64,000 nucleotides of DNA from a virus. Taxonomy: Duplodnaviria > Heunggongvirae > Uroviricota > Caudoviricetes > Crassvirales. Where the stretch lies: positions 11,764-75,763 of IMG/VR virus record IMGVR_UViG_3300033120_000148. One strand, written 5' to 3'. Every line of letters begins with the position of its first letter. Position 1 is the first letter of the stretch. Positions 1 through 29,257 of this stretch are shown in pieces. The notes beneath the pieces were generated by a model that made no database searches, was not told where the DNA came from, and saw nothing but the letters and a program-made list of their open reading frames with translations. The translations under genes were made by a program, and so were the position numbers.

Positions 1-1
1 T

Positions 2-36: not shown

Positions 37-100
37 TATATATAGTAAATTACTATATAAGTACAATAAATTTAATAAAATCCTTGTTACATTGATATAT

Positions 101-121: not shown

Positions 122-141
122 GATTTTTAATATTATTAAAT

Positions 142-2089: not shown

Positions 2090-2090
2090 T

Positions 2091-6863: not shown

Positions 6864-6887
6864 TGTAGTATAATTATATATAATATA

Positions 6888-6937
6888 ATGGGTAGATTAA
6901 GTTAAATCTTAGTCTACCCATAATTATTTTAATTAAG
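6888..6937 (+). terminator. Rho-independent terminator: 14-bp stem (ATGGGTAGATTAAG / CTTAGTCTACCCAT, one U.G), 6-nt loop, then AATTATTTTAATT
   Basis: Perfect inverted repeat immediately after the TAA of the 1590-aa gene, followed by the promoter motif at 6958-6978. Confidence 0.6.
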
Positions 6938-6957
6938 TTATTGTATATATCAATAAT

Positions 6958-6978
6958 TTTATTTATCTTTGCAACAAA
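6958..6978 (+). promoter_or_regulatory. Bacteroidota-type promoter, TATCTTTG -7 element inside TTTTATTTATCTTTGCAACAA
   Basis: Second copy of the motif seen at 101-121. Sits ~19 nt upstream of ATG 6990. Confidence 0.5.
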
Positions 6979-6989
6979 ATTTATATAGT

Positions 6990-9416: not shown

Positions 9417-9417
9417 T

Positions 9418-11205: not shown

Positions 11206-11213
11206 TAATAAAT

Positions 11214-14200
11214 ATGGGAACATTAAAATAGGTAAAATAGAAACCAATAGATATATTGAAAACTGGTCCTGCCAGTTTTAGAGAACTACAATAGGCTAAC
11301 CAGTCAAACTTTAGTCCTTAGTATTAGGCATTTGTAAATGACTTAAAGATTAAGTCTCAGCCAACATCATTATTTGATGCTGCTGCTTAGGCTTAGCAGG
11401 ATGTTGCTTCTCCATTAAATAATAGTGAAACACCATGGGGTAAAAGTAAATTTGATGCTACTTCAGCTAATGATAACACATTTAATAATTTAGGTGATAT
11501 TAGAGCTGAAAATGAACCTTGGTATGATAAAATAGGTGCAGGTATTTCTAAGGGAGCAGTACTAGCAGGTACTACTTTCTTAGATGGTACTCTTGGTTTA
11601 TTATATGGAGCAGGAACTGCAATTTCTCAAGGAAGAATATCAGGTATTTGGGATAATGATTTCTCAAGGTCTATGCAAAGTATTAATAATTATATGGAGA
11701 AAGAACTTCCAAATTATTATACTTAGAAAGAACAATAGGCAGCTTGGTATAGTCCAGATAATATATTTACAGCTAACTTCCTAGGAGATAAATTTATAAA
11801 GAACTTAGGATTTAGTATTGGTGCTTTTTATTCTGGTGGTGTTACAGCCTCTGGATTAAAATTAAGTCAATTACCATAGTTAATTGAAAAAGTAACAGGT
11901 ATAACAAATGCAGCTAGTCATGTAACTTCTGCTGTAGGTGCAACTATATCTGCTGTTAATGAAGGTAGAATAGAAGCCCTTAATAATTCAGGAGATTGGT
12001 ATAAGGCTTAGAAGACTATACTTGATGACAAATATAAATCAAGAATAGAGGCTATTTAGTAGTAGTATCAAGCTAATGCTAACAGACAAATGATTAAAAC
12101 TGCTGAGGGTTCTTATGTAGATCCTGCTTATTTACAATATAAGCAAGATATAGCTAGAGAATAGAATTCATATCAAGGTACTCTTAGAAAGATGAATGAA
12201 GACAGGTTACATATGGGCAATGTTGATTTATTAATGAACTTACCTATATTAACTGCTTCTAATCTTATATAGTTTGGTAAGATGTATGCTAATGGATTTA
12301 AGACTGCTAGAAAGACTACAAATATTACTGGAGGAATTGGTAATTATGCAGCTAATACATCTAATGCGAGAGCTGCTCTTGCATTCACTAAAAGTGCTTT
12401 ATCAGAAGGTAATGAGGAAGTACTTCAATAGGCTGCTAGTAATATATCTGGAGATTATTATGCTACAGATGTAAATAACTATTATAAAGCTAAAACTGAT
12501 CCTAAGGCAGCTAAAGATACTCTAAGTTGGACAAAAGCTTTTGCTTAGGGAATGAATGAAACATTAAATGATAACTCATCTTGGGAATAGTTCCTTATAG
12601 GTAGTATAACAGGTGCACTTGGTATGCCTAGATTTAGGTCTATTAAGAATGCAGAAGGTCATTTTCAGTTTCCAGTAACTTTAGAAGGAGGTGCTTATAA
12701 TCAGTTTAAAGATTATAGAGAGGAAGCAGCTAGAACTCAAGGAGTAGTAGATTATTTAAATAACAGAGTTAACTCCCCTGATTTTAAGAATTACTATCAA
12801 GGACTTGTTAGACATAATAAGTTCTAGAATGATATGAATTAGGCAGTAGATAATAATGATGATTTTAATTTCAAGAATGCTGAGCATTCTCAATTAGTTT
12901 CTGATGTTTCCATGTTTGCAAAAGCTGGAAAATTAGAAGATCTAAATACATTAGTGAAAGCAGCTTATGATACATCTGATGATAATTTAAAATCTATTAC
13001 TGAGAACACTACAACTAAAACTCCTAATGGTATATCTGGTCCATTTGTAGACTCTAGTGGTAATCCTATGTATGCTACTGAAGCAGGTAAATAGGAGATG
13101 ATTAATAAGCTTACTAAGTCTAAAGATGAGATAATGAAGGAAGTAAATAACTATAGTAAGATAAGAGACTAGATTAATGCAAGTACTAATGAAGCTCTTA
13201 CTGATGATTAGCTTGATGAATTAACTTGGATGACTTCTTAGATAGGTAACTTTGAAGACAGATCTACTGAGATGGCTAAGGATATTAAAACTTCTATATC
13301 TAAAGTTATAGGTAATCTTTCTTCTAAATTATCTTTGGCTACACAAATTAGACATCAAGAAGGTAAGGACCATGCAGATTTAACACCTGTTTACAGACAA
13401 GCAGATAAAGCAGTTATCAACTTAACTAAGACTATGGATAGTTTAAACTCACTACAAAGTCGAAGTGATGATTCTATGCTAAGTGCTTTAACTGATAACC
13501 CAGAAGTTGTAAATTACTTAAATAAGCAAATAGATAATCTAGATGAATCTGTACTAGATAAAGAATCTAAGAAAGATATAAATTAGAAATTGAATGATAT
13601 TCTTAAACTTGGTAAAGCTATAGATGTATTTAGAAGTAAACTAGATGAATACACCAATAACCCTGCTAAATAGTAGGAAGACCATGCTAAGATTGATACT
13701 GATAAAATAAAGGAAGAAGAGGCAAATAAGAAAGCATCTATAAAAGATAGATTAAGAAATGCTAAAGATTTATAGGAGTATAGATCTATATTAAGTGATG
13801 AGGAAGATGACACAGATGATGCTGTAAAAGACTTACAAAATGAGAACCATAACTTAACTATAACTAATAAAAAGATTAATAGTAGGTATAGAAGCTTGCA
13901 AAATGCTATACTTAATAATAAAGATATAGATGATGAAACTAAGTAGGATGCTCTTGATATGTTGGATAATCATTATAATAAAGCCAAATCACTTGGTGAA
14001 TTCAGAGATCCAAACTCAGCAAGTCTAACTGATGAAGACTACTTCAATCATGATACAGGATTTAATGAAGGGTCATCTAATGATAGATTTTAGAAAGCTA
14101 AATATGCAATTGATAAAGCTTTTGAAAAGGTAGTTAAGGATAATAACTTCATGAGGTCTCTAGCTTAGTAGCAGCCATTACAAGATATAGTTAGGCAGAC

Positions 14201-17200
14201 TACTGAAAAAAATGGAGTTAAAATAACTAAATATGGAAGAAGAAAAGGAGATAAAATAATTAATGGTACTGGTCCTAGCATAAGTAAAGATGATATTCCT
14301 GAATCAGAATTAGAAACTATTGAAGGCCTACTTGATGATATGGGAGATACAGCTAAGTTAGAACTGATTGAATTAAGAGAAAGGGATGGAAAATATTCTG
14401 GAACTGTAAGACTTAATGGGCAGATAAGTGGTGCTCCTATTAATGAAAAATTTGAATTTCTATTTGATAAAAATCCAGATAAACTGAGGGGTGTAGATAA
14501 AGAAGAAACAGGAGATAGTAAAACAGCAACAATACCAACAGAAGATAATTCAAATGAATTACCCAGGACAATTAATGAAATACCTGTAGGTGATTATTCA
14601 ATAGATGAAGTTAAAGAAGAGAATAAAAACTCTGATACTAATGATAAGAAACTTACATCTAAAGATAATTCTTAGTACTATATTCCTGCTGTACCAGAGT
14701 TGGATATTGAAGCTAGTAGAAATGGTGATTATAGAAACTTTGATGAAGTTAAAAAGGAGTAGAATCCTAAACTAGATTTCTCTAAAATATATAATTATTT
14801 ATCTAGTAATAATGCTTTTTCATATGTAAATGAAGGTAATCTTAAAGAAGGTGATAGATTAGGTTTTATGATAGATCCTAACTTTAGTGATACTACTATA
14901 TTTATTATTGATAAGAAAAATAATTAGATAGTAGGTTCTCTATTTGAGTCTGATTATAAACTAAAACAGTATGAAGGCTTGGAGCAATTAGTTAACAAGA
15001 TATATCAAGAATATAAAAATAGAGAAGATAGAAATTCTAAATTTATAGCTACTCCTACTACAAGAGTGTCTTAGATGCTTGTAGGTAGAATTCCATATAT
15101 TGCAGATGAAAAGAATCTAAAGAATGTAATAGAAGAAGGTAAAGCTAATAGTACTATTTTTGGCATAGTTAAAAATGGGTCTATTACTACTAATGAAGCT
15201 ATTCCTAGTGATTAGATTATGATGCACTCTGGATTAGATGGTAAAGAAGGTAGATTATATATGTTACTATCTAATGCTGCAGGTAAATATTCACCTGTAG
15301 CTGTGAGAGTAAAGCACTTTAATGCTGATGAATTTAATCTAGATGATGCTACTGTAGCAGAAACACCAATGGGTAAGAGTATTTCTAAAGCTATAAATGA
15401 TTTAGCTAGATCCTCATCTTAGGAAGACATAACTAATGCAATGGTTAATCTAATATAGGATATTCATCTGCAAGATGAGATAATTACTCCTATGGAGAAT
15501 AACAAAGGTAGAGGTATTCTTATAAGTTCTAAGGTCAAGGGAGCAGATGGTAAATATGAAATGGTTGAAATAGATGGTAAATAGTATATTAAAGAAACTA
15601 GAATACCTATTTACTTTACTAAAGAGGTTAAACCAGTAGAAAAGAATGGACTAAGTCTAGAATTTTCATCATTTGAAGCGGCTGATATTCCTAGTAGTAG
15701 TGTAGAGATGAAGCCTGTTTAGGATATAGTAAAGGAAATAACAAATGCTTTATATTCATTGAATAAACCTTTACAAGTAAGTACTGGAAGAATTAATTAG
15801 TCTGGATATAATGCTAGAATAATTAACTCAAATATACTTTCATCAAATATTAGTTCTACTAAAATTAAAGGAAGTTTCTTTACAACAGATTACTTTGATA
15901 AATCAGGAAATCTACATGCTGCTATAACAGTAGCAAATAATAGACCTTCAGTAGGAAGAAAAATTGAAACTGTTGTTGGTGGAAAAGAGAGTGCTATTCC
16001 AGGAACTCCTGTAAATCTTAATAATATATAGTACTATGTTGATTTATCTACTAAGGAAATAAGAGATAAATTCAATAATAAAGTTACTACTAATTAGGAT
16101 TTACTATTTAATCTAGCTTGGGTAAGAAATAACTATGGTAGATTAAAGAGTACTGGTGCTATTAAAAATAATAAAGTTTTATTGCCTGATGGTAGGGCAC
16201 TAGATATTAGTAAATAGAAGATATTAAGTGGAAAAGAGTATGATAAATTTATAGATTCATTAGATGCTGTAAAAGAGAGTACAGAAGCTAATTACTAGGA
16301 TGGATTAAAGGCTGTAGAGCAAATGCAAGAAAACTAGAAATTAGTTGATAGTCAGACCTATTCTATATTGGAAGATGATGGTAATTATTATGATTATACT
16401 CCTGCTGTAGATAAAGCACAATCTAGAGATACTATTTTAGACAATGGTCTTCACACATTAATACTATAGTTTTTTAATTCATCTGAACCTATAGTTAAGC
16501 CTGATACTATGACTAAGAAAGCCTATTAGGCATTAATAGATTAGCTAAATAATATTAAAGAAGCTTTAGAAAATAGAGGTGAGAGATTTATATCTAATAA
16601 TATAACATTATTCTATAAGTATCCAAATGGAGATAGAATAGCTGCTAAGGTAGATATAATGACTATGGATAAAGATGGTAGATTTAGATTATATGCTGTT
16701 AGAAAATAGTCTTAGAATAAAGATGATATACAGAAGATAACTAAAGAATTATCTATTATGTCAAATCTATTTAGTTCTCAATATAACTTGCCTATTTATT
16801 CTATGGCTATAATACCTTTCTCTGTAAAAACAAGAGGAAATAAGGTATCTGAGACTAAATTAGAAAAGGGTATATCTATCAAATAGAATGCAGGTACTGA
16901 TACACCAGCTATAGGTAATATATAGAAAGCTAAATCTACATTACCAATATTTGAAAGTTCCTTAGAAACTCTAAAACCTATTAATGATGTTAATACTGAC
17001 AACAGATCATTAGATTCTGATACAATAGGTTATTTCTAGATTGAAGGTAAGTTACATACTGGTTATTTAATGCCTATAGGTAATATTGAAGGTAATGAGT
17101 TATATTTAACTAGAACTGCCAATATGACAAAAGGATTTAAAGACACTGTAGCTCATGCTGCAACTTATAATTATTTTGTAGTATTTCCTAATGGTGAAAC

Positions 17201-17717
17201 ATTTAATATTAAGAATAATAGCATTACAAAAGATCCTAAGGAAATGGCTAAAACAGCTATTAATCTTTTAAGTAAAAATCCTAATAGAGTAAAGGATATG
17301 TCTACTTCTGATACATTACTTTATAAAAAAGGTGAAGAGGTAACTTAGGAAGTTGAAAAACCTAAATTAACTACTGCTAATCTATTATAGAGTAGTAATA
17401 ATAAGTTAACAGCTTCTCAATAGACTGTATTAAAAGAGTAGGCTGTAGCTGATGTAGATGAAGAATTTGAAGATGATTTGGATCTAGATGATATTACTAA
17501 TATAGGTGATTCTATAATGAGTGGTCAAAAGGCTGATATTACAGATTCTAATAATAGTAAAGATGATAGTAAGATTGATGTAATTACAGATATAGATTAT
17601 GATTCACTATCAAATGATGCTAAAAAGTCACTGACTTCAAAAGGTTGGACAAAAGCAAAGTGGAATAAAGTATCTATTGCAGAGAAGTAGAAAGCTCTAA
17701 ATTGTCTAGGTTTTTAA
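11214..17717 (+). CDS. Giant virion/tail-type protein, ~2167 aa, TAG recoded (dozens of in-frame TAG)
   Basis: Track fragments 12624, 12912, 13272, 14340, 15219, 17070 and 17478 all share frame 0. Read through, they are joined only by TAG codons, ending at TAA 17715-17717. Confidence 0.6.
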
Positions 17718-17763
17718 TTTGTTTGGTCATATTTCTAAGACTGTTAGGAATAAATTTTTTATA

Positions 17764-17803
17764 GGGGAAGCAGAGTAATCTGTTTCTCCTATTTTTGTTT
17801 GTT
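17764..17803 (+). terminator. Rho-independent terminator for the plus-strand arm: 10-bp stem (GGGGAAGCAG/CTGTTTCTCC, two G.U), loop AGTAAT, then TATTTTTGTTTGTT
   Basis: Hairpin plus T-tract ~45 nt after the stop of the 2167-aa gene. Confidence 0.5.
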
Positions 17804-17810
17804 AGGAATT

Positions 17811-17841
17811 AAAAAAAATAAGGGAAGATTTCTCTTCCCTT
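17811..17841 (-). terminator. Rho-independent terminator for the minus-strand arm: perfect 8-bp stem AAGGGAAG/CTTCCCTT, then an A8 run (U-tract on minus strand)
   Basis: Lies between the stop of the 1350-aa gene (17878) and the plus-strand terminator, giving a convergent terminator pair. Confidence 0.55.
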
Positions 17842-17877
17842 ACATTTTAATAACTAAAAATTATGAAATATATTAAA

Positions 17878-20800
17878 TTACTGCTTGAAGAATGGTATAG
17901 CCAATTCTGGTGCAATACCTCTTGTTACAGTGTTTCTCATTGGAGCTAGAGGACTTCTCATTAAGTACTTATAAGCCTTATTATGACCTTTAAATACACC
18001 ACTTTGCATAATAGCATTTTCACCTCCAATAGCCTCATAGTTATAAGGATTTATAACATTAAGTAAATCTAATGTTGATTGAATTGTCTGTATAGCAGCA
18101 GCAGGAGATTTAACTAATTTAAGACCCTCATCTATCATAGGTTTTCCTGGCACTAATACACCAATTTCATTTTGCAATCTTCTTAATTGATACTCAGCCA
18201 TTTTACCTGCCCAAGTACTATTTTTAGTGTCCCAATCAATTAAGCCTAGAGCTGTTATTATCATTAAATAATGTCCTACTTCTACTATAGCTCTCTTAAT
18301 ATTAGCTTTCTCAGTATTAGTTAATTCACTCCAAGATGAACCAATATCAAATTGAGATTGTTTTAAGTCTTTAGCTAATTGCATCATAAATCTACCTGCA
18401 GTTTTATAATAACCTTCAGTCCATTCTTGTAGATCCATATTATAAGTAGCTTCTTGAAATCTTCTATTTAAAGATGGTTTAACCCATTTTCTAAACATTA
18501 TAGCCATTCTACCTACAGCAAATTGTTGCATTGCACTTCTATCTGCTTTATTATAAACACCGTGCATTCTCTCATTAATTGCAGTAGTTTTTCTACTAAA
18601 AGCTATAATATCATCTCTAGTAAATTCAGATCCATCTTCTTTAGTATAACCATCTTTTACCTGTAACTTAGCTCCTAATTTCTTATTATTAGGATCAGTA
18701 TAAACTACTTCCATAGCATCCCATAGAGAAACTAATTTACCTTCTGGTGATTTCATTTTATATCTATCAGCAAGAGCTAATGAAGTTCTATTTTGCATCC
18801 AATGCTCACCAGCATTATTCATCATAAATAAAGCTGAACTACCAAACATTCTAGTGAACCATGTTTTTCTATCATAGTTCAACTCTTTAATCTCTGTTTC
18901 ATATTCCTGCATTACATTGAATAATTCATCCCATAGAGCTAGTTTTCCTACTTTAACTCTATTACCTATCTCTGCTAGATACTCTGGTAAAGCACTACCA
19001 TAATTTCTATCAGCATGTAAAGTATTAGATTCATTATAATACTCACCTGCTAAAGATTCAATTCTCATCATTATAGTACCAGTAGCAACATTAGAAATAC
19101 CTGACAATATATTTAGAGCCAGAGTATTAACAGAAGTTAATCTGTTAAATGTATCTGCTGTTTTAGCTTTATCTATTTTTGAATCACCAAAAGTACCTTC
19201 ATCCGCTATATATCTACCATATACTTGCATATTAAAGAAACTATTAAGTCTCTTCATGAACTTTGTTTTATCTCCTGAAATAGTTATAGGTGATTCTACC
19301 TTAGTTCCAAATACCTTAAATTTTTCCTTTAATGTCTTTCCACCTGAGGTCTGCAAGATCTTTCTTTCTCTTAGTAAATCTCTTCCTAATTCAAGTGTAT
19401 CTAGTACCTTATTCATTTGATTATAGTCATTAGCCATAGCTGCATAAGCAGTTAATGTTGACACTGCATCTGTTGATATATCATTATTACTTTCACCATC
19501 TTTTAGATTAGTATAGTAAATAGGCAATGACATAACTTCATTACCACTGAAATCTTTAGTAGCATGCTTATAACCAAAATCAGTGTCATCTGCTCTTCTT
19601 ATAAAAGAATCCTTTATACTTTCCCATATTTGTTTAGTTCCCGACTTTAAATCATCAGAGCCTTTAACTCTTTCAACTAGGTCTTTTCTAATCTTAACAG
19701 TATTTAAGAGCTTGGCATTAGGTAAATATGAATCTAGTGACTTCTTTATTTTCATAAATTTATCATAGAATTCTCTTTGTGCTGGAGTTAATTTCTTAAA
19801 AGCTTCACTACTATAAATTGAAATCTTAGGTCTATGTACACCATCTACAGTTTCAAAGTTCTCAGTAAACCATTTCTTTCTTTCTCTTTTTGCTTCTCTT
19901 TCTTCATTAGGATCAGATATACTAGGATATTTATCATGTAATCCTTGAGTCATCTCTTCATATTTCTTTTTATATAAAGAGTAATCAATTTCTGATATAT
20001 ATTTTCCAGTTAAATTACCTTCAGCATCTCTTTCAAACATCCATTCAGTATCTTTAATACCTGACTGCTCTAATGTCATTATAGCAGATTGTAACTCTTT
20101 AACAACATCTATAGTATCTAATCTAGCATTCTCTTTACTCTTTTTAACAGCTTGATCCATTATTTTTAGCATATAGTCTGTACTATCAGCCATTGAATCC
20201 AGCCAAAGATTAAAGAAAGAAATATCCTTACCAGCTTCTTTAACTATATCTTCAGCAGTCATTGTAGTACCTTTATATTTTCCAAAGGGAATAGTAATAC
20301 CATCACCTACAAATGGCTTAATAAAGCTAACAAATAATGGCATTGCAACTTCATTATAAGTTATAGATAAATCATTTAGTACCCCAGTAGCTTCATCTAA
20401 AACTTCTTTTAGTTCACTAGAGTACTGATTATCATCAAATCTACTTTCCTCTAGTACTGATTTTCTTATATCTTTAAATATAGGTTCAAAGCTACTCATA
20501 TAATTTCTTATATCTCTTAGAACTCCTGCCTTTTCATTTATTGATTTACTATCATTAGTAGAAGATCCTGCTAACATACTATTTAATCTAGAGTTTACTT
20601 TCTGTAGTTCATCTAGAGCATTCTTAGTAAATTCTGAAATACCATTAATTATTTCATTATTCTCTATACTTTCAGTAATATTATTTATTACTTCTCTTTG
20701 ATGTAATGTAAACTTGGCATTATTATTTCTAGTACTATATATACTCAATCTTTTTAACTCATTAGATTGAATACTCTTTAATAGGTCTCTAGTTTTACCT

Positions 20801-21930
20801 GCTCTTTCAGATAATTGATATAATCTATTAGTAACTTTAATATTCTTTAAATCTAAGCTATTTGATAGATCACCATTAAGCAGATCATCTGCTATAGTAT
20901 TAGCAATACTATTAGTATTAAGTACAGCCTTTTGAATATCTGTAGTACCTATATTATAAAAGAAATCCCTTATTACATTTATTAATCTTATTAGAATAGA
21001 TTTATATGGCTTACTAGGAATACTTGCTACATCTAGTAAGTGTTTAGCCACTAACTTTCCTGCTGCTTCTTTAGCCATATCTGCAGGATTACCATTATAC
21101 ATTATACTGTAGTCATCATAATCCTCTCCTAATATTTCATTAATTAAATCATTATCTACAATAGAATTAATTAATCTATTAACTAAAGGGTTATCACCTA
21201 ATGCTTCTACAGCAAAATGGGAGAATTCTTCTGGTAAAGCCTTCTCTCCTGCTTCTCCTTGGGCTAATCTAATTAACTGAATTATACCATCTACAGAAGC
21301 TTTAGCTAATTCAAAATCAGTAACTCCATTAATATTTAATCTTCTCTCTAAATCATTTAGAGCACCTATTGATATATTTTTACTCTCTAATATTTCTCTT
21401 AATCTAGTATTAAGAGCTTCATTATAACTCATATTAGAAGCATTTAGAGAGTTGTAAGCATTTCTTCTTTCTACCTTAGGAGCAATATATATTTCTCCTG
21501 TCTCAGAGTCTTGTACTTTTACTACTGAAGCTACAAAGTTATCTCTGTAGTCAGAAGTAGTATTAAATTCAATAGCTTTTTGTTTAAACTTGTTATAGTT
21601 TTCTTGGTTATTTATATTTAAAGAAACTCTATCAGACCCCTTTTTAAAATAACCAATATCTTTATTTAGTTTTGTAAGTACATTACTTTCTGCAATGACT
21701 TTATTTAAACCTGCTTTGTACATTAAACTACTTATAGTAGGTTCTCCATTTTCATCAAGATTTAATTTACTATTCCAGTTATTAATAAAATCACTAGATT
21801 TGGTTTTTAAATAAATATCTCTAGCAGATTCTCTAGTAGTTAGTGATAGTAGACCCTTAAAGAGTCTACTATCTACTAATTCATTATTTTTGTTTTTTAC
21901 TTTAGGAATAATTGCACACTGTAACTTCAT
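17878..21930 (-). CDS. Giant hypothetical protein, 1350 aa (virion/RNAP-associated type in crAss-like phages?)
   Basis: Uninterrupted standard-code ORF with TAA stop. Sits immediately downstream of the 2401-aa gene with an 18-nt spacer. Confidence 0.7.
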   Translation of the reverse strand: MKLQCAIIPKVKNKNNELVDSRLFKGLLSLTTRESARDIYLKTKSSDFINNWNSKLNLDENGEPTISSLMYKAGLNKVIAESNVLTKLNKDIGYFKKGSDRVSLNINNQENYNKFKQKAIEFNTTSDYRDNFVASVVKVQDSETGEIYIAPKVERRNAYNSLNASNMSYNEALNTRLREILESKNISIGALNDLERRLNINGVTDFELAKASVDGIIQLIRLAQGEAGEKALPEEFSHFAVEALGDNPLVNRLINSIVDNDLINEILGEDYDDYSIMYNGNPADMAKEAAGKLVAKHLLDVASIPSKPYKSILIRLINVIRDFFYNIGTTDIQKAVLNTNSIANTIADDLLNGDLSNSLDLKNIKVTNRLYQLSERAGKTRDLLKSIQSNELKRLSIYSTRNNNAKFTLHQREVINNITESIENNEIINGISEFTKNALDELQKVNSRLNSMLAGSSTNDSKSINEKAGVLRDIRNYMSSFEPIFKDIRKSVLEESRFDDNQYSSELKEVLDEATGVLNDLSITYNEVAMPLFVSFIKPFVGDGITIPFGKYKGTTMTAEDIVKEAGKDISFFNLWLDSMADSTDYMLKIMDQAVKKSKENARLDTIDVVKELQSAIMTLEQSGIKDTEWMFERDAEGNLTGKYISEIDYSLYKKKYEEMTQGLHDKYPSISDPNEEREAKRERKKWFTENFETVDGVHRPKISIYSSEAFKKLTPAQREFYDKFMKIKKSLDSYLPNAKLLNTVKIRKDLVERVKGSDDLKSGTKQIWESIKDSFIRRADDTDFGYKHATKDFSGNEVMSLPIYYTNLKDGESNNDISTDAVSTLTAYAAMANDYNQMNKVLDTLELGRDLLRERKILQTSGGKTLKEKFKVFGTKVESPITISGDKTKFMKRLNSFFNMQVYGRYIADEGTFGDSKIDKAKTADTFNRLTSVNTLALNILSGISNVATGTIMMRIESLAGEYYNESNTLHADRNYGSALPEYLAEIGNRVKVGKLALWDELFNVMQEYETEIKELNYDRKTWFTRMFGSSALFMMNNAGEHWMQNRTSLALADRYKMKSPEGKLVSLWDAMEVVYTDPNNKKLGAKLQVKDGYTKEDGSEFTRDDIIAFSRKTTAINERMHGVYNKADRSAMQQFAVGRMAIMFRKWVKPSLNRRFQEATYNMDLQEWTEGYYKTAGRFMMQLAKDLKQSQFDIGSSWSELTNTEKANIKRAIVEVGHYLMIITALGLIDWDTKNSTWAGKMAEYQLRRLQNEIGVLVPGKPMIDEGLKLVKSPAAAIQTIQSTLDLLNVINPYNYEAIGGENAIMQSGVFKGHNKAYKYLMRSPLAPMRNTVTRGIAPELAIPFFKQ

Positions 21931-21947
21931 ATCTTATACTTAATTAA

Positions 21948-24900
21948 TTAACAAATAGGTTCACCATTGGCATCCTTGTAATCATCATTAGATTGTATTG
22001 AATTAATACCTGAATGAATATTAGGAGCATCTTCTAATTCTGATCCATAAACTGCTCTAAAAGCATCCTTTGGAATATCCATAATACCTTTTATATCATC
22101 AGCAGATGGTTCTTGCTTTTCCATAGATTCATCACTTGAGTCATCTATATTATCTGTAGAATCTTCCTCATTATAATCAGTATTATTATTATCCTCAGTT
22201 ACACTATTACCAGTATCATTTATATCAGTATTACTATTAGATGGCAATACAGAATTCATAGCATCTACATCTTTACCATATTCATACTCTAAGAAATTAT
22301 TAACTTTTCCTAGAGGTTTAATTCTATAGTAAGTTGCCGTATTTAATTCACTGCCTTCATCTTTCTTATAATAGAAGAAGTCATCTTTTCCTTTTACTGC
22401 TATATAATCAAGAAAATCATATATAGTTGTACCATTTACAGTAATAGCAGTTTTAATAAAAGGATCTAAGTCAACTCTTGGGAAATTCCCATCAATAGTA
22501 AATTCTTTTATTGCTTTATTATCCTTAACTATATTATCTTTTATTGAACCTGTTTTTATCTCTGGTACTAATCTTCTATTATTTAAGTGATTACTAATAT
22601 ATTGACCTATAAATTCTTTATAACTATCATTAGTATTTAGTAAACCTCTTAATGTAGAAATATAATCAGGTACAGCTAATCTTAAAGATGTTGGAGCTAA
22701 ATGAATGAATGAATTAGCACCAAAAGAAAATCCATTTCTATAGAAGTTATATCTAAATAAATTTAGAGCTAACTTTTGTGCTTCCTCATTCTTCATATAG
22801 AGTAATGATTCCCAATCTCTCATATATCTCTCTTTAAGAGTAGAACTTAGTTGACCTACATTCTTAAATACAAGAGTTTCTACTGGATTGGTTCTAGAAG
22901 GCTTAACAACTTGTAATCTCTTAATAAAATCAAGAGAAGCTATATCTTCATTATTAGTTACAATCTTCTTAAATTCAGAAGGAAAATTATTAATAAAGTT
23001 TCTTCTTTTATCTTCAGAAGTTATCTCTCCAAACTCACTACCAAAGAATTTAGTTTTAGACATTACATATACTAGTAGATCATTATAAATACTATTAATA
23101 GTTTTTACATCTAATTTACCAGTTTTAGAGATGTCATAGAATCCATTAAAGCCATCATAGTTATTACCCTTACCAGTAAATACTTCCTTAAATGACTTTG
23201 TATAATTAGGAAAATACTTTGAGAAAATACCCTCTGTCCCAGTTATACCACAGGTAAAAGCTGCTTGTATATAAGGCAAAGGACTTTCATTTAAAGTATT
23301 TCTTAAATTAGATATTGACATACTCTTACTATCAATTACCTTTACTACATCTGCATTATTCAAAGGAAAACTTAGAGTATCCATCTTATCATAAAGTGTC
23401 TCAACTTTCTGTATCTTATTCATAGTATGAGCTATAGTAGGACCTGCAGCTCCAGCTGGAGTATCAGATCTTGTAGCTTGAACAACTAGACTAAGAGCAT
23501 CTGCTGAGTTCATTATTCTTTGAAATAGTACTCCAATAGCTAATTGATTTCTAGAGAATTCTATTGTATCAGCTTTACTTCTATTATTATTTTGTAGTAA
23601 ATACTGAGCTAATTCCTCATTACTAAAACTTCTTCCAGCATAGTTATCATAAGATAGTATCTTAGATACACTAGATCTTTTAGCATATTTACTTAGAACA
23701 TTCTTAATAGCAGTATCTTTGTTTATACCACTTCTATAATTTCTAAAATAATAATTAGTCATGTCTTTTACAATAGGCTGACTCATAAGTAAACCTATTT
23801 CAACAGGAGTATAACCTAATCTTGATAATAACATAGAAGCATCAGAAGTAAATAGATTTTGATTAATATCTGCTAGTACTTGATCCTTAACATTATCTAC
23901 TGAAGCAGCAAGAAAACCTGCATTATTTCTAGAAATAAATTCTCCTTCAGGATTCTTTATTTCATGTAAAGAAGTTAAAGATTTACCATTAAGAACAAAT
24001 TTACCTGCAGAATTTAATTCTAACTTAGTATGCTGTATTAGAGCATGATTAGAGTTATGATTTGCATACATCTTAATCAATTCTCCACCAGTCATATTTT
24101 GTTGATGAAAATAAACTTGTGTCCTAGGAGATAAAGGATTTATAAACTTCCTATTCTTTTCTGCCAGTTTCTCTAGTACCTTAACATTAGTGATATTTAA
24201 TAATGTTTCTAATACAGATTGACTAGGAGAATTTGACATACCTTTTAAATCTTCTCTTAAAGATTCTATAGTAGAATTTTGTAATATAGATACAATCTTA
24301 GCTGCTCTTTTCTGATAATCAAATCCACCAGGATTAAGAATTTTAGGAGCAGTATCAGGATTAGTTAGTACTCCATACATCATATCAATAATCAGATTAT
24401 TTCTAGCTGCTAAAGAATTCTCTTCTGGCTTTAAATTAAAATCATATTTTATTTTGTATAAAGAGGTTCTTTGCTTCCTATAGTTTTCTTTATTACTTCT
24501 GAACCACTCTTTAAATGAAGGGTCTTCATCTTCATTTAATTCATTTGCTAATTGGCTATTAGAGAATGAAGACATTATAGAGTGATAGGCTGCATTTGAT
24601 TTAGCAAAATCTTCTCTAGCCTGTCTTATATTATACTTAGATATACCAAATTCAGGTAACATAATATATAATTTATCTACATCAAAATCTGAACCTGATA
24701 AGGCAGTAATCTCTGAAGGTAACATTATAGCTGAACCATTCTGTTGAGGAAGAAAACCCTTGATATACAGAGGAACCATACTATATTTATCTTCAGTTGG
24801 AACTCTATATCCTATTAACTTTCTAAGATCCTCAGGTAATTTAGACACATCTAATTGATGAGTTTCTGGATTCATTAATGGTTCATAGAAGTCTCTACTG

Positions 24901-27900
24901 TAAGCAGGCATGTAGCATTCAAGATACTTAATTCTTTTGTTCTCTCCCTTACCTGTAAATACAATATGTAAATCATCTGATAATCCATAATCAGAAACCT
25001 GAATTAATGCTCCACCTTTTAGTTTTTGTTTAACTATTCTACTCTTAATAATACTGTTAAGCATCTGCTGAGTTTTAACAGATTGCACAGGGTCAAATAA
25101 TGGAATAGTAAAATCACCATTATTATCTAATGTACAAGCTTTAATCATATCATAGTTATACTTCTTATTACCCTTGACAGTTTCAATTAATATATTAGAC
25201 ACCTCTTTAGGATCTAGAAGTTCTTTCTTAACAGAGTCATAAGACTCTAACATATTCTCAGTAATAATACTATTATAGAGAGAAAGAAATTCAGCCTTAC
25301 TAAAGTTCTTGCCATTAACTGATATAATTGCATCTTCTGGAATATCTGCTGTAATTAGTTTCTTTATCTGTGTTCCTAATAATTGCTTAGCATCTATTAA
25401 ATGCTCAGGTGTTGCAGTCTGAATACCATAATCTTCATAGCTTATAGCATGTACAACATTAGGGTCTTCATTACCTGCTGCTATTCCAGTAGTATTATTT
25501 AGAATTTCTAAAGTCTTATCAAATGAATCTACATTATAAGAATCTATTTGCTTATTATATTCCTCTTGTGTAATAGTGCCTTCTTTTAAGTCATTATCTA
25601 GTTTCTTCTTTACAGAATTATCTATAGTAGAATTTAGATTTATTACTCCTTGTTTACCTACTTTTACAGCAGATTCAAATTGCACTACATCTATATTATT
25701 CTGCTCCATGAAACTATTAATAGCTCTTAATTTGCCAGATTTACCTAGAGGACCAGATACTAAGTTGTACATAGCTAAAAGTAAAAACTCTGAGTTCTTA
25801 TGCTGTACAGGTGTTTTAATATTACCAAAGGTATCTATACCACTATTATTACTTACTTGTGTAAATACAAATGGTTTAATAGTCTGCCAAATAGTATCAA
25901 AATCTGAAGCATCCCAAGTATTATTCTTGAAATTATGATAAGCTTTTTCCATATCATCATTCCAATCTCCAGACATAACCTTAATAGCTCTATAAGAATC
26001 TAGACTTCTATAAGCTTGAGCATCAGCTACATTTACTTCTTTAAACTTCTTAATGATTTCCTCTCTACCAGGAACATTCTTCTCTTTCAATATTTCATTA
26101 ATATCATCTAGAACGCTAGAAGTTATCTCTTCATCTTTAAGATAAATAGTTCTTTCTATTTTCCTACCTACTTTTTCACCATTAAATGTAGCATCAGTAT
26201 TTAATCTAAGAGGAGAGGCATAAATCTCCTTATATCTCTTTTGAAAATCTACTGCACCTTTATAAAATGCTAAATCAGTAGTAGTTAATTGAATTATTTG
26301 AGAAGTTGCAAATGAACTATTCCAGAAGTATTCTCTGAAAGCTTCCTTAGCAGTATTCTTTAATGATAATCTACTCTTTAGATTCTCTAGTTTTTCTGCT
26401 GATTTCTCATCAGAAAACTCCAATTCATAAATGTCATCTAGAACTGATGAAGCAAAGTTATCATTAATAGGACTATTATTAACATACTGTTGTAATAGAG
26501 ACTCCATATTCTCACTCCAAGACTCAGAACTTTCAGAAGTTACTAATTGCTTAATCTCTCTAAGAAGTTTTGCCTGATTAGAATTATTCTTTATGATACT
26601 ATCTCTGAAAGTTAAATTCTTAAATTTACCATTTTCAGTTTCCTCAAATACACCATTATCATACCATTCTTTATAAGCATCTTCAAAAGAAGACTCCATA
26701 ATATCTTGTATAACTGCTGATATATAAGATTTCATTGCAGCACCATCACCATCTTCTCTAAGTCTAGCTATAGTATCTAAGAATGACTCACCCTGCAATT
26801 CTACAGAGTTTAACTGTGGTAAGAACTTAAATTCTGCTCCACCAATATTACTGATTTCACCATTATTATTTCTAACAATATCAAAATTAGTTATTGGTTT
26901 AATTGACTTATCCCCACTCTGATAGGCATTATCTCTAGCTCTCACTAGCATAATTCTATCATACTCTTGTCCTACTAGATCTATAAATTTAGTAGTCAGT
27001 ATCTCTTGATAGCTCATAGGTTCACCATCCTCATTATACATATCTCCATTAGTATATTTTCTAAATCTAATGAATTCTGCAGAAGGACTATCAGATAAAA
27101 TAGGTACATGATACCATGCCCACTTAGTATCTGATTTAATATTAGAGGGTTCACTATTATACTCATTAAATAGAATTAAAGAATAATCTAGGTCATCCCA
27201 TTTAGTATATTCTACCTTGTCTGAATTTAATAATACCTTTCTATTTAAACCTTCTCTCATTTTAGGAGAATTGACTAACTGATTAAGCCAATCATTTCTC
27301 CAAGAATTATTCTTAAAGAACCAGTTATATTGTTTAAATTCTGTATTTATGAATTGCTCAAACCTCTCTTCATTATTGTATACATTTTTAAGATTTTTAA
27401 TTAATTTACCAAGATAACTAGGATTTACATGAGAATAGTAGGATTTACCATTCTCTCTACTACTGCTCTCTATAGCATCTTCAGTTACTTCTGCAAGCAT
27501 ATTTGCTATATTAGAATATGAATTGCTAAATAAATTAATTAAATCATTTTTATTATTATCTGAAGTACTAACTTTATTCTTTGCTATACCACTAAAGATA
27601 ACATTTAATGAATTAACTAGAGTAACTACAGATGGAGTAAAGTCTACTTTATCAGTCCCTATATATGTACCAATAACTTTCTTTAACATATCAGGATTAG
27701 CATCTACACCAACCATATGCAATGCCTTTAGTAAGTCATTAAATATAGATTCATCTTCGCCTGCTAATTCTGCTTTATCTTTATTAGATAAATTATTAAA
27801 TTTACTATTGATACCTGATAATATAGCTAGACCTTTACCAGCATTACTAGCATTAAAACCTTGTGAAGTATAAACACTATCTTTATCTAGTATTACATTA

Positions 27901-29153
27901 CCTTCATAGTTATCTCTCCAACTATTTATTAGATAATATATACCTTCAGGTTTATTAACCTGCTTAGTTTGTACATTAAATGTTCCATCAGGATTTAACT
28001 TCTTGATTTGAATCCAATAAGGTGTAAAATCCTTTCTGAAATCTTGATAGAATTTAGAGAATAAAGTATTATCACCTTGTATAGTTTTGATTAGTTGTTT
28101 AACCCAAACTTTATTATTTGATAATTTATCTAAAGTAGGAATCATATCACTGGAGTTAATCATGTCCTTTAAGCTATCAATCAAAGCAGCATGAACATAA
28201 TCAGCATCCAGATACCTAGGGAAACCTAAATCATCCTTCTCAATCTTACCTCTGCTATTAAGCTTAGGTATGTTGCTTATTACTTCTCTTACTTTCTTAG
28301 ACAGTGACTCATGTGAGCTAATTTCTCTAAAATTAGTCATCCAACCATCTTTAACAGATTCCTCTTTAGATAATTCATCAGCCTTTACTTTTACAGCATC
28401 TGTATCAGATTCTGTCATATCCACATCTGAAGAAGCCATATCATCTGAATCTACTACTATACCTTCAGTAATAGATAAAATAGCTCCTGCCTCATCTGCT
28501 AAAGCTCTGAAATTTCTAATTAGTTTTTCATATTCAGAATTTTTATAGGCAGCTATTTTCTTAGCTGCTTCTAATTTCTTTTCATCTGAATATCTTTCAG
28601 AGCCTTTCTTAGAATTAATAGTATCAAGTTCTGCTGCAATATTATTCTCCATAGAGTCATTAACATACTTTTTAAATATGTCTAGAACTCTATTAAAGAT
28701 GCCAGCAGGAGTATATAAATTAAGAACAGATATTCTATCCAAATCATTTAATTTGGAAATAAGTTCTTCTTTATTTTCAACCTCTGGGTCTCCTGACTTT
28801 TTATTTACATATTCAGATACCTCCTGTAATGAAGTATCAATTTCATTACTAAATAATTTTGCTATTAAATTAGCTCTATCCCTTCTTTTAATAGGATCAT
28901 AGTCCTTTGCAACTTGTCTTAAATCATCACTGTTAGTAGTAATAGTAGTAGTATTATAGTCATAAGAATTATCCTTATTCTCTCTAAGTTTGATCATAAA
29001 GTCAGATAATTCTCCTACAGTTGGATAAGATTCTATAGAACCTTTACCACTTTCTTGCCATAAAGAAATAAGATTTTTAATAGATTCAGCAGTTTCCTGT
29101 GGAAATGATTTCGCTATCTCTTTTATTTCTTCAGTCATTAATAAACAACTCAT
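21948..29153 (-). CDS. Giant 2401-aa protein, candidate crAss-like virion-packaged RNA polymerase (DxDxD-type motif GSDFDVDKLY)
   Basis: Uninterrupted ORF. DFDVD resembles the double-psi beta-barrel Asp triad (NADFDGD / DxDGD) of two-barrel RNAPs. No other recognisable motif, so the function is tentative. Confidence 0.65.
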   Translation of the reverse strand: MSCLLMTEEIKEIAKSFPQETAESIKNLISLWQESGKGSIESYPTVGELSDFMIKLRENKDNSYDYNTTTITTNSDDLRQVAKDYDPIKRRDRANLIAKLFSNEIDTSLQEVSEYVNKKSGDPEVENKEELISKLNDLDRISVLNLYTPAGIFNRVLDIFKKYVNDSMENNIAAELDTINSKKGSERYSDEKKLEAAKKIAAYKNSEYEKLIRNFRALADEAGAILSITEGIVVDSDDMASSDVDMTESDTDAVKVKADELSKEESVKDGWMTNFREISSHESLSKKVREVISNIPKLNSRGKIEKDDLGFPRYLDADYVHAALIDSLKDMINSSDMIPTLDKLSNNKVWVKQLIKTIQGDNTLFSKFYQDFRKDFTPYWIQIKKLNPDGTFNVQTKQVNKPEGIYYLINSWRDNYEGNVILDKDSVYTSQGFNASNAGKGLAILSGINSKFNNLSNKDKAELAGEDESIFNDLLKALHMVGVDANPDMLKKVIGTYIGTDKVDFTPSVVTLVNSLNVIFSGIAKNKVSTSDNNKNDLINLFSNSYSNIANMLAEVTEDAIESSSRENGKSYYSHVNPSYLGKLIKNLKNVYNNEERFEQFINTEFKQYNWFFKNNSWRNDWLNQLVNSPKMREGLNRKVLLNSDKVEYTKWDDLDYSLILFNEYNSEPSNIKSDTKWAWYHVPILSDSPSAEFIRFRKYTNGDMYNEDGEPMSYQEILTTKFIDLVGQEYDRIMLVRARDNAYQSGDKSIKPITNFDIVRNNNGEISNIGGAEFKFLPQLNSVELQGESFLDTIARLREDGDGAAMKSYISAVIQDIMESSFEDAYKEWYDNGVFEETENGKFKNLTFRDSIIKNNSNQAKLLREIKQLVTSESSESWSENMESLLQQYVNNSPINDNFASSVLDDIYELEFSDEKSAEKLENLKSRLSLKNTAKEAFREYFWNSSFATSQIIQLTTTDLAFYKGAVDFQKRYKEIYASPLRLNTDATFNGEKVGRKIERTIYLKDEEITSSVLDDINEILKEKNVPGREEIIKKFKEVNVADAQAYRSLDSYRAIKVMSGDWNDDMEKAYHNFKNNTWDASDFDTIWQTIKPFVFTQVSNNSGIDTFGNIKTPVQHKNSEFLLLAMYNLVSGPLGKSGKLRAINSFMEQNNIDVVQFESAVKVGKQGVINLNSTIDNSVKKKLDNDLKEGTITQEEYNKQIDSYNVDSFDKTLEILNNTTGIAAGNEDPNVVHAISYEDYGIQTATPEHLIDAKQLLGTQIKKLITADIPEDAIISVNGKNFSKAEFLSLYNSIITENMLESYDSVKKELLDPKEVSNILIETVKGNKKYNYDMIKACTLDNNGDFTIPLFDPVQSVKTQQMLNSIIKSRIVKQKLKGGALIQVSDYGLSDDLHIVFTGKGENKRIKYLECYMPAYSRDFYEPLMNPETHQLDVSKLPEDLRKLIGYRVPTEDKYSMVPLYIKGFLPQQNGSAIMLPSEITALSGSDFDVDKLYIMLPEFGISKYNIRQAREDFAKSNAAYHSIMSSFSNSQLANELNEDEDPSFKEWFRSNKENYRKQRTSLYKIKYDFNLKPEENSLAARNNLIIDMMYGVLTNPDTAPKILNPGGFDYQKRAAKIVSILQNSTIESLREDLKGMSNSPSQSVLETLLNITNVKVLEKLAEKNRKFINPLSPRTQVYFHQQNMTGGELIKMYANHNSNHALIQHTKLELNSAGKFVLNGKSLTSLHEIKNPEGEFISRNNAGFLAASVDNVKDQVLADINQNLFTSDASMLLSRLGYTPVEIGLLMSQPIVKDMTNYYFRNYRSGINKDTAIKNVLSKYAKRSSVSKILSYDNYAGRSFSNEELAQYLLQNNNRSKADTIEFSRNQLAIGVLFQRIMNSADALSLVVQATRSDTPAGAAGPTIAHTMNKIQKVETLYDKMDTLSFPLNNADVVKVIDSKSMSISNLRNTLNESPLPYIQAAFTCGITGTEGIFSKYFPNYTKSFKEVFTGKGNNYDGFNGFYDISKTGKLDVKTINSIYNDLLVYVMSKTKFFGSEFGEITSEDKRRNFINNFPSEFKKIVTNNEDIASLDFIKRLQVVKPSRTNPVETLVFKNVGQLSSTLKERYMRDWESLLYMKNEEAQKLALNLFRYNFYRNGFSFGANSFIHLAPTSLRLAVPDYISTLRGLLNTNDSYKEFIGQYISNHLNNRRLVPEIKTGSIKDNIVKDNKAIKEFTIDGNFPRVDLDPFIKTAITVNGTTIYDFLDYIAVKGKDDFFYYKKDEGSELNTATYYRIKPLGKVNNFLEYEYGKDVDAMNSVLPSNSNTDINDTGNSVTEDNNNTDYNEEDSTDNIDDSSDESMEKQEPSADDIKGIMDIPKDAFRAVYGSELEDAPNIHSGINSIQSNDDYKDANGEPIC

Positions 29154-29169: not shown

Positions 29170-29190
29170 TTATTTTGCAAAGGTAATACT
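29170..29190 (-). promoter_or_regulatory. Bacteroidota-type -7 element TACCTTTG (minus strand) 24 nt upstream of the ATG of the 2401-aa gene
   Basis: Reverse complement of CAAAGGTA at 29178-29185, followed on the minus strand by CAAAA, similar to the plus-strand motif. Confidence 0.4.
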
Positions 29191-29257
29191 TTTAATTCAT
29201 AAAAACAATACTATAAGTATAAAACTTATAGTATATTTATATTTAATATATTAGAAC

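What the first reader, a model, noticed from the sequence alone, without database searches (positions are those of the whole stretch)
21948..29153. 2401-aa protein with a DFDVD motif: candidate giant virion RNA polymerase
A giant ORF carrying GSDFDVDKLYIM, reminiscent of the catalytic Asp triad (NADFDGD / DxDGD) of two-barrel RNA polymerases, which is the hallmark of the virion-packaged RNAP of crAss-like phages. It is followed by a second giant gene (1350 aa) and preceded by a Bacteroides-type promoter. Both giants use the standard code although they lie next to the recoded arm.
Basis: inference. Interest (0 to 1): 0.6.

Follow-up and report, generated by a model that had tools for sequence, protein, structure and literature searches.

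The report
crAss-like phage virion RNA polymerase gene
The giant gene is the ortholog of the RNA polymerase that crAss-like gut phages are known to pack into their particles to start infection; it is a correct call of a known hallmark gene in a previously undescribed phage lineage, not a new kind of thing.

Summary
ORF 21948-29153 (minus strand, 2401 aa) carries GSDFDVDKLYIM, with DFDVD at residues 1489-1493.

- **Homology:** it is a full-length ortholog (52% identity, 100% coverage) of crAss001 gp50 'putative RNA polymerase'. It is also a clear homolog of the characterised phi14:2 gp66 virion RNAP (PDB 6VR4: phmmer E=1.7e-20, profile E=1.2e-32), with DFDVD aligned to the catalytic DFDID.
- **Neighbours:** the 1350-aa neighbour is the gp49/gp65 'RNAP-associated' protein. 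A third giant (gp47/gp67-like) lies convergently at 11214-17717.
- **Genetic code:** the third giant is TAG-to-Gln recoded (61 in-frame TAG). The two minus-strand giants have none in 3751 codons.
- **Transcription unit:** a Bacteroidetes-type promoter (TTG-N20-TAnnTTTG) precedes the gene and an intrinsic terminator follows the second giant.

Verdict: a new member of a known family (Steigviridae, Asinivirinae-like). The only mildly new aspect is that the genetic-code boundary cuts through the three-protein polymerase module.

The parts
29178..29208 (-). Host-type (Bacteroidetes sigma-A-like) promoter candidate: TTG-N20-TACCTTTG, 25 nt upstream of the ATG
   Evidence: Composite pattern: 5 hits vs 1.65 expected, all in intergenic gaps 26-32 nt upstream of gene starts in coding orientation.
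29203..29238 (-). Terminator-like hairpin plus U-run closing the upstream ThyX gene (29258-30091)
   Evidence: RNA fold dG -11.2 kcal/mol, z = -4.0. ThyX assigned by Pfam PF02511.
21948..29153 (-). Virion RNA polymerase gene (2401 aa), ortholog of crAss001 gp50 and homolog of phi14:2 gp66; 0 in-frame TAG, stop TAA
25437..26294 (-). Residues 954-1239: region upstream of the connector, holding the first (beta-like) barrel; family-invariant K972, R973, D1044, K1093, K1119, K1164
   Evidence: Mapped from gp66 875-1094 through alignment A2. Part of the region superposed on 6VR4.
25005..25436 (-). Residues 1240-1383: Connector domain equivalent (gp66 1095-1238)
   Evidence: Alignment mapping. gp66 domain limits are taken from bioRxiv 10.1101/2020.03.07.982082.
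24549..25004 (-). Residues 1384-1535: second (beta-prime-like) barrel region carrying the catalytic loop
   Evidence: Alignment mapping. In the model, strands flank the motif loop.
24675..24689 (-). Codons for DFDVD (residues 1489-1493), the predicted Mg-binding catalytic triad
   Evidence: Aligned to gp66 DFDID. G-S-D-[FY]-D-[IV]-D-K kept in 52 of 53 divergent homologs.
24039..24131 (-). Residues 1675-1705: bridge-helix equivalent
   Evidence: Maps to gp66 1529-1559. The model has one continuous helix at model residues 747-777 = protein residues 1676-1706.
23823..23942 (-). Residues 1738-1777: trigger-loop equivalent (FLAASVDNVKD vs gp66 FLNAFVDNAKD)
   Evidence: Alignment mapping.
17878..21930 (-). 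Second giant (1350 aa): RNAP-associated virion protein, ortholog of crAss001 gp49 and homolog of the C-terminal two thirds of phi14:2 gp65; standard code
   Evidence: 58% identity to gp49 over the full length. blastp E=4e-29 and phmmer E=1.9e-26 to gp65. No PDB, Pfam, PHROGs or NCBIfam hit.
17818..17843 (-). Intrinsic terminator closing the RNAP/gp49-like transcription unit
   Evidence: 11-bp stem followed by a T-run.
17761..17792 (+). Intrinsic terminator closing the convergent recoded arm
   Evidence: 14-bp stem followed by a T-run.
11214..17717 (+). Third giant of the module (2167 aa with TAG read as Gln; 61 in-frame TAG), ortholog of crAss001 gp47, N-terminus homologous to phi14:2 gp67

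Best explanation

By homology with phi14:2 gp66, two double-psi beta-barrels joined by a connector form the active site. D1489, D1491 and D1493 of DFDVD bind the catalytic Mg2+, and a bridge helix (about 1675-1705) and a trigger loop (about 1738-1777) complete the catalytic core.

The gene is transcribed, together with the downstream gp49/gp65-like gene, by the host RNA polymerase from a Bacteroidetes-type promoter (29178-29208). Transcription ends at an intrinsic terminator (17818-17843).

Both proteins are translatable in the host's standard code. The third module protein (gp47/gp67-like, convergent arm) can only be made once TAG is read as Gln, that is, late.

The three proteins are then packed into the capsid and ejected into the next host with the DNA, where the polymerase transcribes the early genes independently of the host enzyme.

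Shown here: homology, motif conservation, predicted fold, synteny, code usage, promoter and terminator signals. Inferred from relatives: packaging, ejection, early-gene transcription and timing.
For: - 6VR4 is the only significant PDB sequence hit: E=1.7e-20 and profile E=1.2e-32, in collinear segments over gp66 875-1723, with weaker collinear hits at both ends.
- blastp to gp66: 24% identity over 1047 aa, E=1e-35.
- crAss001 gp50: 52% identity over the full length, with identical SGSDFDVDKLYIMLPE.
- In a 53-sequence alignment with 16% mean column identity, D1489 is invariant. F/D/D/K of the motif are kept in at least 49 of 53, and position 4 is I or V in 51 of 53. This matches the rule stated for all crAss-like RNAPs (bioRxiv 10.1101/2020.03.07.982082).
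- Model pLDDT 80.8, pTM 0.81.
- Foldseek: 6VR4 E=1.6e-35, TM 0.67; QDE-1 prob 1.00; otherwise RNAP large subunits.
- Synteny RNAP -> gp49-like -> convergent gp47-like is identical in crAss001, cr85_1, cr128_1 and bajarodcaudo virus and in 69 of 80 IMG/VR loci; the rest are truncated.
- Promoter and terminators.
- Code usage.
- Literature: the gp66 Asp-to-Ala mutants are inactive, early genes are rifampicin-resistant, and middle/late genes including g066 are made by host RNAP (10.1101/2020.03.07.982082). crAss001 gp47, gp49 and gp50 are in virions (PMC10172136). gp49/gp50 are middle and gp47 late transcripts (PMC8375218).
Against: - Nothing here demonstrates activity or packaging for this protein.
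- The structure is a prediction made from 53 sequences, and a first attempt with 48 close homologs failed (pLDDT 40.9).
- About 1470 residues outside the modelled core have no assignable function.
- Position 4 of the motif is Val, not the Gly of all cellular RNAPs. [quoted passage not shown]
- No Pfam, PHROGs or NCBIfam model recognises the protein.
- The suppressor tRNA implied by the recoded arm is not in the window, so the timing argument is indirect.
Confidence: 0.9

Rival explanations
1. The protein is (also or only) a non-virion polymerase that acts inside the cell where it is made, for example on late genes, rather than solely an ejected early-gene polymerase.
For: - It sits on the standard-code arm behind replication and nucleotide-metabolism genes (ThyX, PolA, dUTPase, NrdD). 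It is TAG-free, so it can be translated before the code switch.
- In crAss001 the orthologs gp49/gp50 are middle transcripts, and the authors raise this possibility themselves (PMC8375218).
- In recoded relative L074 the RNAP gene again has 0 TAG while both partners are recoded.
Against: - crAss001 gp50 is found in virions (PMC10172136).
- In phi14:2, middle and late transcription is rifampicin-sensitive, meaning it depends on host RNAP (10.1101/2020.03.07.982082).
- Host-type promoter motifs also precede genes of the recoded late arm here (84-114 and 6941-6971).
Confidence: 0.12
2. The protein is a catalytically dead structural or ejection protein that merely descends from a polymerase.
For: - In the gp66 crystal the motif is in an inactive conformation.
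- More than half of the protein has no recognisable catalytic role.
- The motif alone occurs by chance in 4.3% of shuffles.
Against: - The whole G-S-D-F-D-[IV]-D-K block, the GYR-x-P element (R1450, P1452) and several basic residues of the first barrel are invariant across homologs that share only 16% mean identity. This indicates purifying selection on an active site.
- gp66 with the same motif type is active in vitro.
Confidence: 0.03
3. The protein is an RNA-dependent RNA polymerase of the QDE-1/RDR type rather than a DNA-dependent enzyme.
For: QDE-1 and RDR2 are among the best structural matches after gp66.
Against: - It has no match to the Pfam RdRP family.
- The genome is a dsDNA phage with no RNA stage known.
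Confidence: 0.02

Closest known systems
Bacteroides phage crAss001 gp50 (AXQ62693.1, 'putative RNA polymerase'; Kehishuvirus, Steigviridae), and its counterparts in cr85_1 (Kahnovirus) and cr128_1 (Mahlunavirus)
   Same: Full-length collinear orthology (52% identity, 100% coverage). The catalytic block SGSDFDVDKLYIMLPE is identical. The neighbours and orientation are the same: gp49-like downstream, gp47-like convergent.
   Different: - Only about 52-55% identity, so probably a separate genus.
- ThyX lies directly upstream, without the gp51-53 equivalents.
- Here the convergent late arm, including the gp47-like partner, is TAG-recoded. The named relatives have 0 in-frame TAG.
Cellulophaga phage phi14:2 gp66 (PDB 6VR4), the only experimentally characterised crAss-like virion RNAP
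   Different: - 24% identity.
- In phi14:2 all three giants are co-directional (g067-g066-g065); here the gp67-like gene is inverted onto the other arm.
- The HExxH (HEIMH) motif of gp65 is not conserved in the gp49-like protein here.
QDE-1 / RDR2 eukaryotic RNAi polymerases and P23-45 gp96 (tape-measure-fused virion RNAP)
   Different: No detectable sequence similarity (9-12% identity in structural alignments), a different motif (DxDGD), and different accessory domains and biology.
Beta-prime / Rpb1 subunits of multisubunit RNA polymerases
   Different: Both barrels lie in one chain. Position 4 of the motif is Val, not Gly. No Pfam RNA_pol_Rpb1 domains are detected.

Membership tests
crAss-like phage virion RNAP (phi14:2 gp66 family) | DFDxD motif with Ile or Val at position 4 | tested here: met
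   DFDVD at residues 1489-1493. I or V in 51 of 53 homologs.
crAss-like phage virion RNAP (phi14:2 gp66 family) | Significant, collinear sequence homology to gp66 across the catalytic core | tested here: met
   phmmer E=1.7e-20; profile E=1.2e-32; blastp E=1e-35 over 1047 aa.
crAss-like phage virion RNAP (phi14:2 gp66 family) | Two double-psi beta-barrels plus connector in one polypeptide | tested here: met
crAss-like phage virion RNAP (phi14:2 gp66 family) | Bridge helix and trigger loop equivalents | tested here: met
   gp66 1529-1559 and 1598-1636 map to residues 1675-1705 and 1738-1777. The model has a 31-residue helix at 1676-1706. FLxAxVDNxKD is conserved.
crAss-like phage virion RNAP (phi14:2 gp66 family) | Embedded in a 'transcription block' with two further giant virion proteins (gp65-like, gp67-like) | tested here: met
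   Second giant vs gp65 E=4e-29; third giant vs gp67 E=5.5e-8. Orthology to crAss001 gp49 and gp47.
crAss-like phage virion RNAP (phi14:2 gp66 family) | Protein present in the virion and ejected into the host | not testable with these tools
   Only by analogy: crAss001 gp47, gp49 and gp50 were detected in virions by mass spectrometry (PMC10172136), and phi14:2 gp65-67 likewise (annotation).
crAss-like phage virion RNAP (phi14:2 gp66 family) | Mg-dependent, rifampicin-resistant DNA-templated RNA synthesis that needs all three Asp | not testable with these tools
   Shown for gp66 only (bioRxiv 10.1101/2020.03.07.982082).
crAss-like phage virion RNAP (phi14:2 gp66 family) | N-terminal cleft-blocking domain (gp66 196-233) giving a self-inhibited state | not tested
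   The N-terminal 930 residues were not modelled. Only a weak collinear match was seen (residues 514-613 of this protein vs gp66 498-592).
Cellular multisubunit RNAP beta-prime / Rpb1 | NADFDGD motif with Gly at position 4, and Pfam RNA_pol_Rpb1 domains | tested here: not met
   The motif is SGSDFDVDK. There is no Pfam hit. Only the barrel fold is shared.
QDE-1 / eukaryotic RdRP family (Pfam RdRP) | Sequence membership (Pfam RdRP) and DxDGD motif | tested here: not met
Zincin-like metalloprotease (reported for phi14:2 gp65 orthologs), tested on the second giant | HExxH metal-binding motif | tested here: not met
   No HExxH in the second or third giant. At the position of gp65 HEIMH, the gp49 clade has a conserved PEEF[AS]HFA[IV]EA.
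Crassvirales with partial amber (TAG to Gln) recoding | In-frame TAG confined to the late/structural arm, with replication genes in standard code | tested here: met
   The pattern is described in PMC7886860 and bioRxiv 10.1101/2021.08.26.457843.

The most novel reading that the evidence does not exclude
The genetic-code boundary runs through the three-protein polymerase module, and the catalytic subunit is the part kept in the host's code.

In this window the RNAP and gp49-like genes are TAG-free, while the gp47-like partner has 61 TAG. In the only other recoded relative found (L074), the RNAP gene is again TAG-free (0 of 2432 codons), although its immediately adjacent, co-directional gp49-like gene has 36 TAG.

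This would mean that translation of the catalytic polymerase is deliberately uncoupled from the late code switch. It would have an intracellular role, or need a head start, before packaging, while the partners are gated to the late phase by suppression.
Probability: 0.25. Interest if true: 0.45.

Novelty: new member of a known kind. Interest (0 to 1): 0.25.

Why it matters
It fixes the annotation of the largest gene in the window. It also identifies the contig as a crAss-like (Steigviridae-type) phage from a lineage that public assemblies hold only as fragments (96-98% identical pieces) and that is absent from the phage genome collection (best hit 54% protein identity).

The polymerase itself adds nothing conceptually new. 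The useful by-product concerns timing. In an amber-recoded member of this group, the genetic code separates the three virion polymerase proteins into 'translatable any time' and 'translatable only late'. This parallels the unexplained middle/late transcriptional split reported for crAss001 and gives a sequence-only handle on it.

Tried and rejected
- Pfam, PHROGs and NCBIfam scans of both giants found nothing significant.
- The first AlphaFold run, with 48 close homologs, gave pLDDT 40.9 and was discarded without a fold search. It was rescued by adding 36 divergent homologs seeded from gp66.
- TAnnTTTG alone is not enriched, and generic sigma-70 hexamer matches are below the shuffle expectation (68 vs 82.8). 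Neither was used as evidence.
- An HExxH/zincin search in the second and third giants was negative.
- PDB sequence search of the second giant gave no hit.
- The tRNA scan found no suppressor tRNA in the window.
- The Rfam scan found no hit at all, so it gives no support for a group I intron in the split PolA gene.
- The 96%-identical fragment P0001, which ends 38 residues before the motif, was considered as a possible intron or split. The gap equals the missing coding length, so a frameshift or assembly error is more likely, and the DNA could not be fetched.
- The idea that the RNAP is always kept in standard code across Crassvirales was rejected as a general rule. PMC7886860 reports delta-group genomes in which RNAP subunits need TAG reassignment.

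Full report
**1. Observation**

The ORF is real. It spans 21948..29153 on the minus strand, starts at ATG, ends at TAA and encodes 2401 aa. Its start MSCLLMTEEIKE matches the consensus N-terminus of homologs.

GSDFDVDKLYIM lies at residues 1487-1498, and DFDVD is 1489-1493 (window 24675-24689). On its own the motif is weak evidence. DFDxD turns up in 4.3% of shuffles of this protein, and about one DxDxD is expected by chance.

The second giant is 17878..21930 (minus strand, 1350 aa), 17 nt downstream.

**2. What it is**

- **Curated libraries and PDB sequence search.** Curated family libraries are silent (Pfam, PHROGs, NCBIfam). A plain phmmer search of PDB sequences returns one significant hit, 6VR4, the virion-packaged RNAP gp66 of Cellulophaga phage phi14:2, at E=1.7e-20. 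Three collinear stretches cover gp66 875-1723, and GSDFDVDKLYIMLPEF aligns to GSDFDIDKMYVMLPNF. A family profile raises this to E=1.2e-32 with no competing family. Pairwise blastp gives 24% identity over 1047 residues, E=1e-35.
- **Annotated phages.** The protein matches 110 records. Forty-four of them are covered over at least 80% of the query, and all identities are below 60%. The best matches are annotated 'putative RNA polymerase' in crAss001, the PhiCrAssBcn isolates, Kehishuvirus tikkala, cr85_1 and cr128_1.
- **crAss001.** crAss001 gp50 is 52% identical over the full length and has the identical block SGSDFDVDKLYIMLPE at residue 1483.
- **Gene numbering in the literature.** By GenBank numbering the DFDxD protein of crAss001 is gp50. 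gp49 has no DxDxD at all and is the gp65 homolog. Two papers call gp49 the catalytic subunit or the homolog of the crystal structure (PMC8375218, PMC10172136). Readers should be aware of this numbering mismatch.

**3. Conservation**

I combined 16 close homologs with 36 divergent ones found by seeding a search with gp66. This gave a 53-row alignment with 16% mean column identity.

Thirteen columns of the modelled region are invariant. They are D1489, R1450 and P1452 of GYRxP, P1469, G1380, Q1262, and a set in the upstream half (K972, R973, D1044, K1093, K1119, K1164).

G-S-D-[FY]-D-[IV]-D-K is kept in 52 of 53 rows. The Ile/Val at position 4 is exactly what the gp66 paper states for all crAss-like RNAPs (bioRxiv 10.1101/2020.03.07.982082).

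**4. Fold**

A first AlphaFold run on residues 900-1900 with 48 close homologs failed (pLDDT 40.9) and was not used. With the divergent alignment, residues 930-1860 gave pLDDT 80.8 and pTM 0.81.

| Search | Hit | Score |
|---|---|---|
| Foldseek vs PDB | 6VR4 | E=1.6e-35, TM 0.67 |
| Foldseek vs PDB | three QDE-1 complexes | E=1.5e-5 to 3.4e-4, prob 1.00 |
| Foldseek vs PDB | nearly all remaining top-50 hits: beta-prime/Rpb1 chains, RDR2, phiKZ nvRNAP | weaker |

Mapping the published gp66 elements through the alignment gives the following:

- connector: residues 1240-1383
- second barrel with the catalytic loop: about 1384-1535
- bridge helix: 1675-1705
- trigger loop: 1738-1777

The model has a single 31-residue helix at 1676-1706.

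**5. Surroundings**

Gene order matches crAss001 exactly. Replication and nucleotide-metabolism genes (NrdD, dUTPase, aspartyl protease, PolA, ThyX) are followed by the RNAP, then the gp49-like gene, and then a convergent arm beginning with the gp47-like gene.

- **Second giant.** It is 58% identical to crAss001 gp49. It is homologous to the C-terminal two thirds of phi14:2 gp65, the 'RNAP-associated protein' (E=4e-29).
- **Third giant.** It lies at 11214-17717 (+) and is 2167 aa once TAG is read as Gln. It is the gp47 ortholog (33-37% identity), and its N-terminus matches gp67 (E=5.5e-8).
- **Wider synteny.** The same RNAP(+)/gp49(+)/gp47(-) layout is seen in cr85_1, cr128_1 and bajarodcaudo virus 1. 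It is also seen in 69 of 80 IMG/VR loci, the others being truncated.

**6. Transcription signals**

Upstream of the ATG lie a hairpin plus U-run that closes ThyX (dG -11.2, z -4.0) and then TTG-N20-TACCTTTG at 29178-29208.

TAnnTTTG alone is not enriched. The composite pattern occurs 5 times against 1.65 expected. All five occurrences are in coding orientation, 26-32 nt upstream of a gene start, on both arms. Intergenic DNA is only a few percent of the window, so this placement is very unlikely by chance.

The motif corresponds to the Bacteroidetes primary-sigma consensus (my own knowledge: -33 TTTG, -7 TAnnTTTG). It also fits the finding that the phi14:2 middle and late genes, including g066, are transcribed by host RNAP.

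Two facing intrinsic terminators separate the arms, at 17761-17792 (+) and 17843-17818 (-). The unit is therefore promoter, RNAP, gp49-like gene, terminator.

**7. Genetic code**

Reading TAG as sense raises long-ORF coverage of 1-17800 (+) from 6% to 100%; TGA and TAA reassignment do not. That arm holds 162 in-frame TAG in 5826 codons, and every gene there stops with TAA. TAG aligns most often with Gln in crAss001 orthologs (24 of 136). The two minus-strand giants have 0 TAG in 3751 codons.

Partial amber recoding of late genes in beta-group (Steigviridae) crAss-like phages is already described (PMC7886860; bioRxiv 10.1101/2021.08.26.457843; 10.64898/2026.08.21.746148). None of the named close relatives is recoded in the gp47-like gene.

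Of 68 assessable IMG/VR relatives, only L074 is recoded. There the boundary sits one gene earlier: the RNAP gene has 0 TAG in 2432 codons, the gp49-like gene 36 in 1359, and the gp47-like gene 42 in 1447. In both recoded lineages the catalytic gene stays in the host code.

This parallels the crAss001 transcript classes, where gp49/gp50 are middle and gp47 is late (PMC8375218). It rests on two lineages only, and delta-group genomes with recoded RNAP subunits exist (PMC7886860).

**8. Mechanism and confidence**

That the protein is a member of the gp66 family with an intact two-barrel active site is well supported; I put the whole best explanation at 0.9. Some steps rest on phi14:2 and crAss001 data rather than on anything shown here: that the protein is packaged with the two other giants, ejected, and transcribes early genes independently of host RNAP. 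I put these steps at about 0.8.

The rivals are an intracellular or dual role, a dead relic, and an RdRP function. They are listed in the rival explanations with the results that would refute them.

**9. Novelty**

This is a new member of a known kind. The phage lineage is not in the phage genome collection; the best RNAP match is 53.8% protein identity. It appears in public metagenome assemblies only as short contigs, 96-98% identical. The polymerase is ordinary for Crassvirales.

Noticed in passing
window 33171-36400 (-): The family-A DNA polymerase gene is split. 35015-36400 encodes the 3'-5' exonuclease plus the N-terminal polymerase part, 34130-34933 a LAGLIDADG endonuclease, and 33171-33977 the C-terminal polymerase part. 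This looks like an intron or other mobile insertion, but Rfam finds no group I intron. A host-type promoter motif (34957-34987) sits just upstream of the endonuclease ORF.
   Followed up: partly
L004 12001-20184 (bajarodcaudo virus 1, PQ006092): The orthologous RNAP gene is interrupted exactly inside the catalytic motif (...SGSDFD | VDKMYIMLPEF...) by about 0.9 kb that carries a LAGLIDADG-type endonuclease gene. This is a mobile element targeting the most conserved codons of the polymerase.
   Followed up: partly
L074 7190-22983 (IMGVR_UViG_3300045988_124835): This is the only TAG-recoded relative among 68 assessable loci. Its RNAP gene has 0 TAG, but the adjacent co-directional gp49-like gene has 36 and the gp47-like gene 42. 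The code boundary there lies inside what looks like a single operon.
   Followed up: partly
window 17878-21930 (-), about residues 225-245; window 11214-17717 (+): The HExxH zincin motif reported for phi14:2 gp65 (HEIMH at 245) is absent from the gp49-like protein, which has a conserved PEEF[AS]HFA[IV]EA at that place. crAss001 gp47 has HEAFH at 2157, in a C-terminal extension of about 240 aa that the gp47-like protein here lacks. No canonical metalloprotease motif is therefore visible in this module.
   Followed up: partly
whole window: There is no tRNA gene although the + arm needs TAG-to-Gln decoding. The suppressor tRNA, if encoded by the phage, must lie in the part of the genome outside the window. 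Three minus-arm ORFs use TAG as their stop codon and would be read through once suppression starts.
   Followed up: no
window 84-114 (+) and 6941-6971 (+): The same TTG-N20-TAnnTTTG promoter-like motif precedes two genes of the recoded late arm. This suggests that host RNA polymerase also transcribes late genes.
   Followed up: no
P0001 contig (ENA ERZ22666135, 8.5 kb): In a 96%-identical relative the RNAP is called as 1451 aa, then a 292-nt gap, then 850 aa. The break is 38 residues before the motif and there is no net insertion. A frameshift or assembly error is likely; the DNA could not be retrieved.
   Followed up: partly
literature vs L001 (crAss001): PMC8375218 and PMC10172136 refer to crAss001 gp49 as the catalytic subunit or the homolog of the gp66 crystal structure. 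By GenBank numbering the DFDVD protein is gp50, and gp49 is the gp65 homolog.
   Followed up: yes
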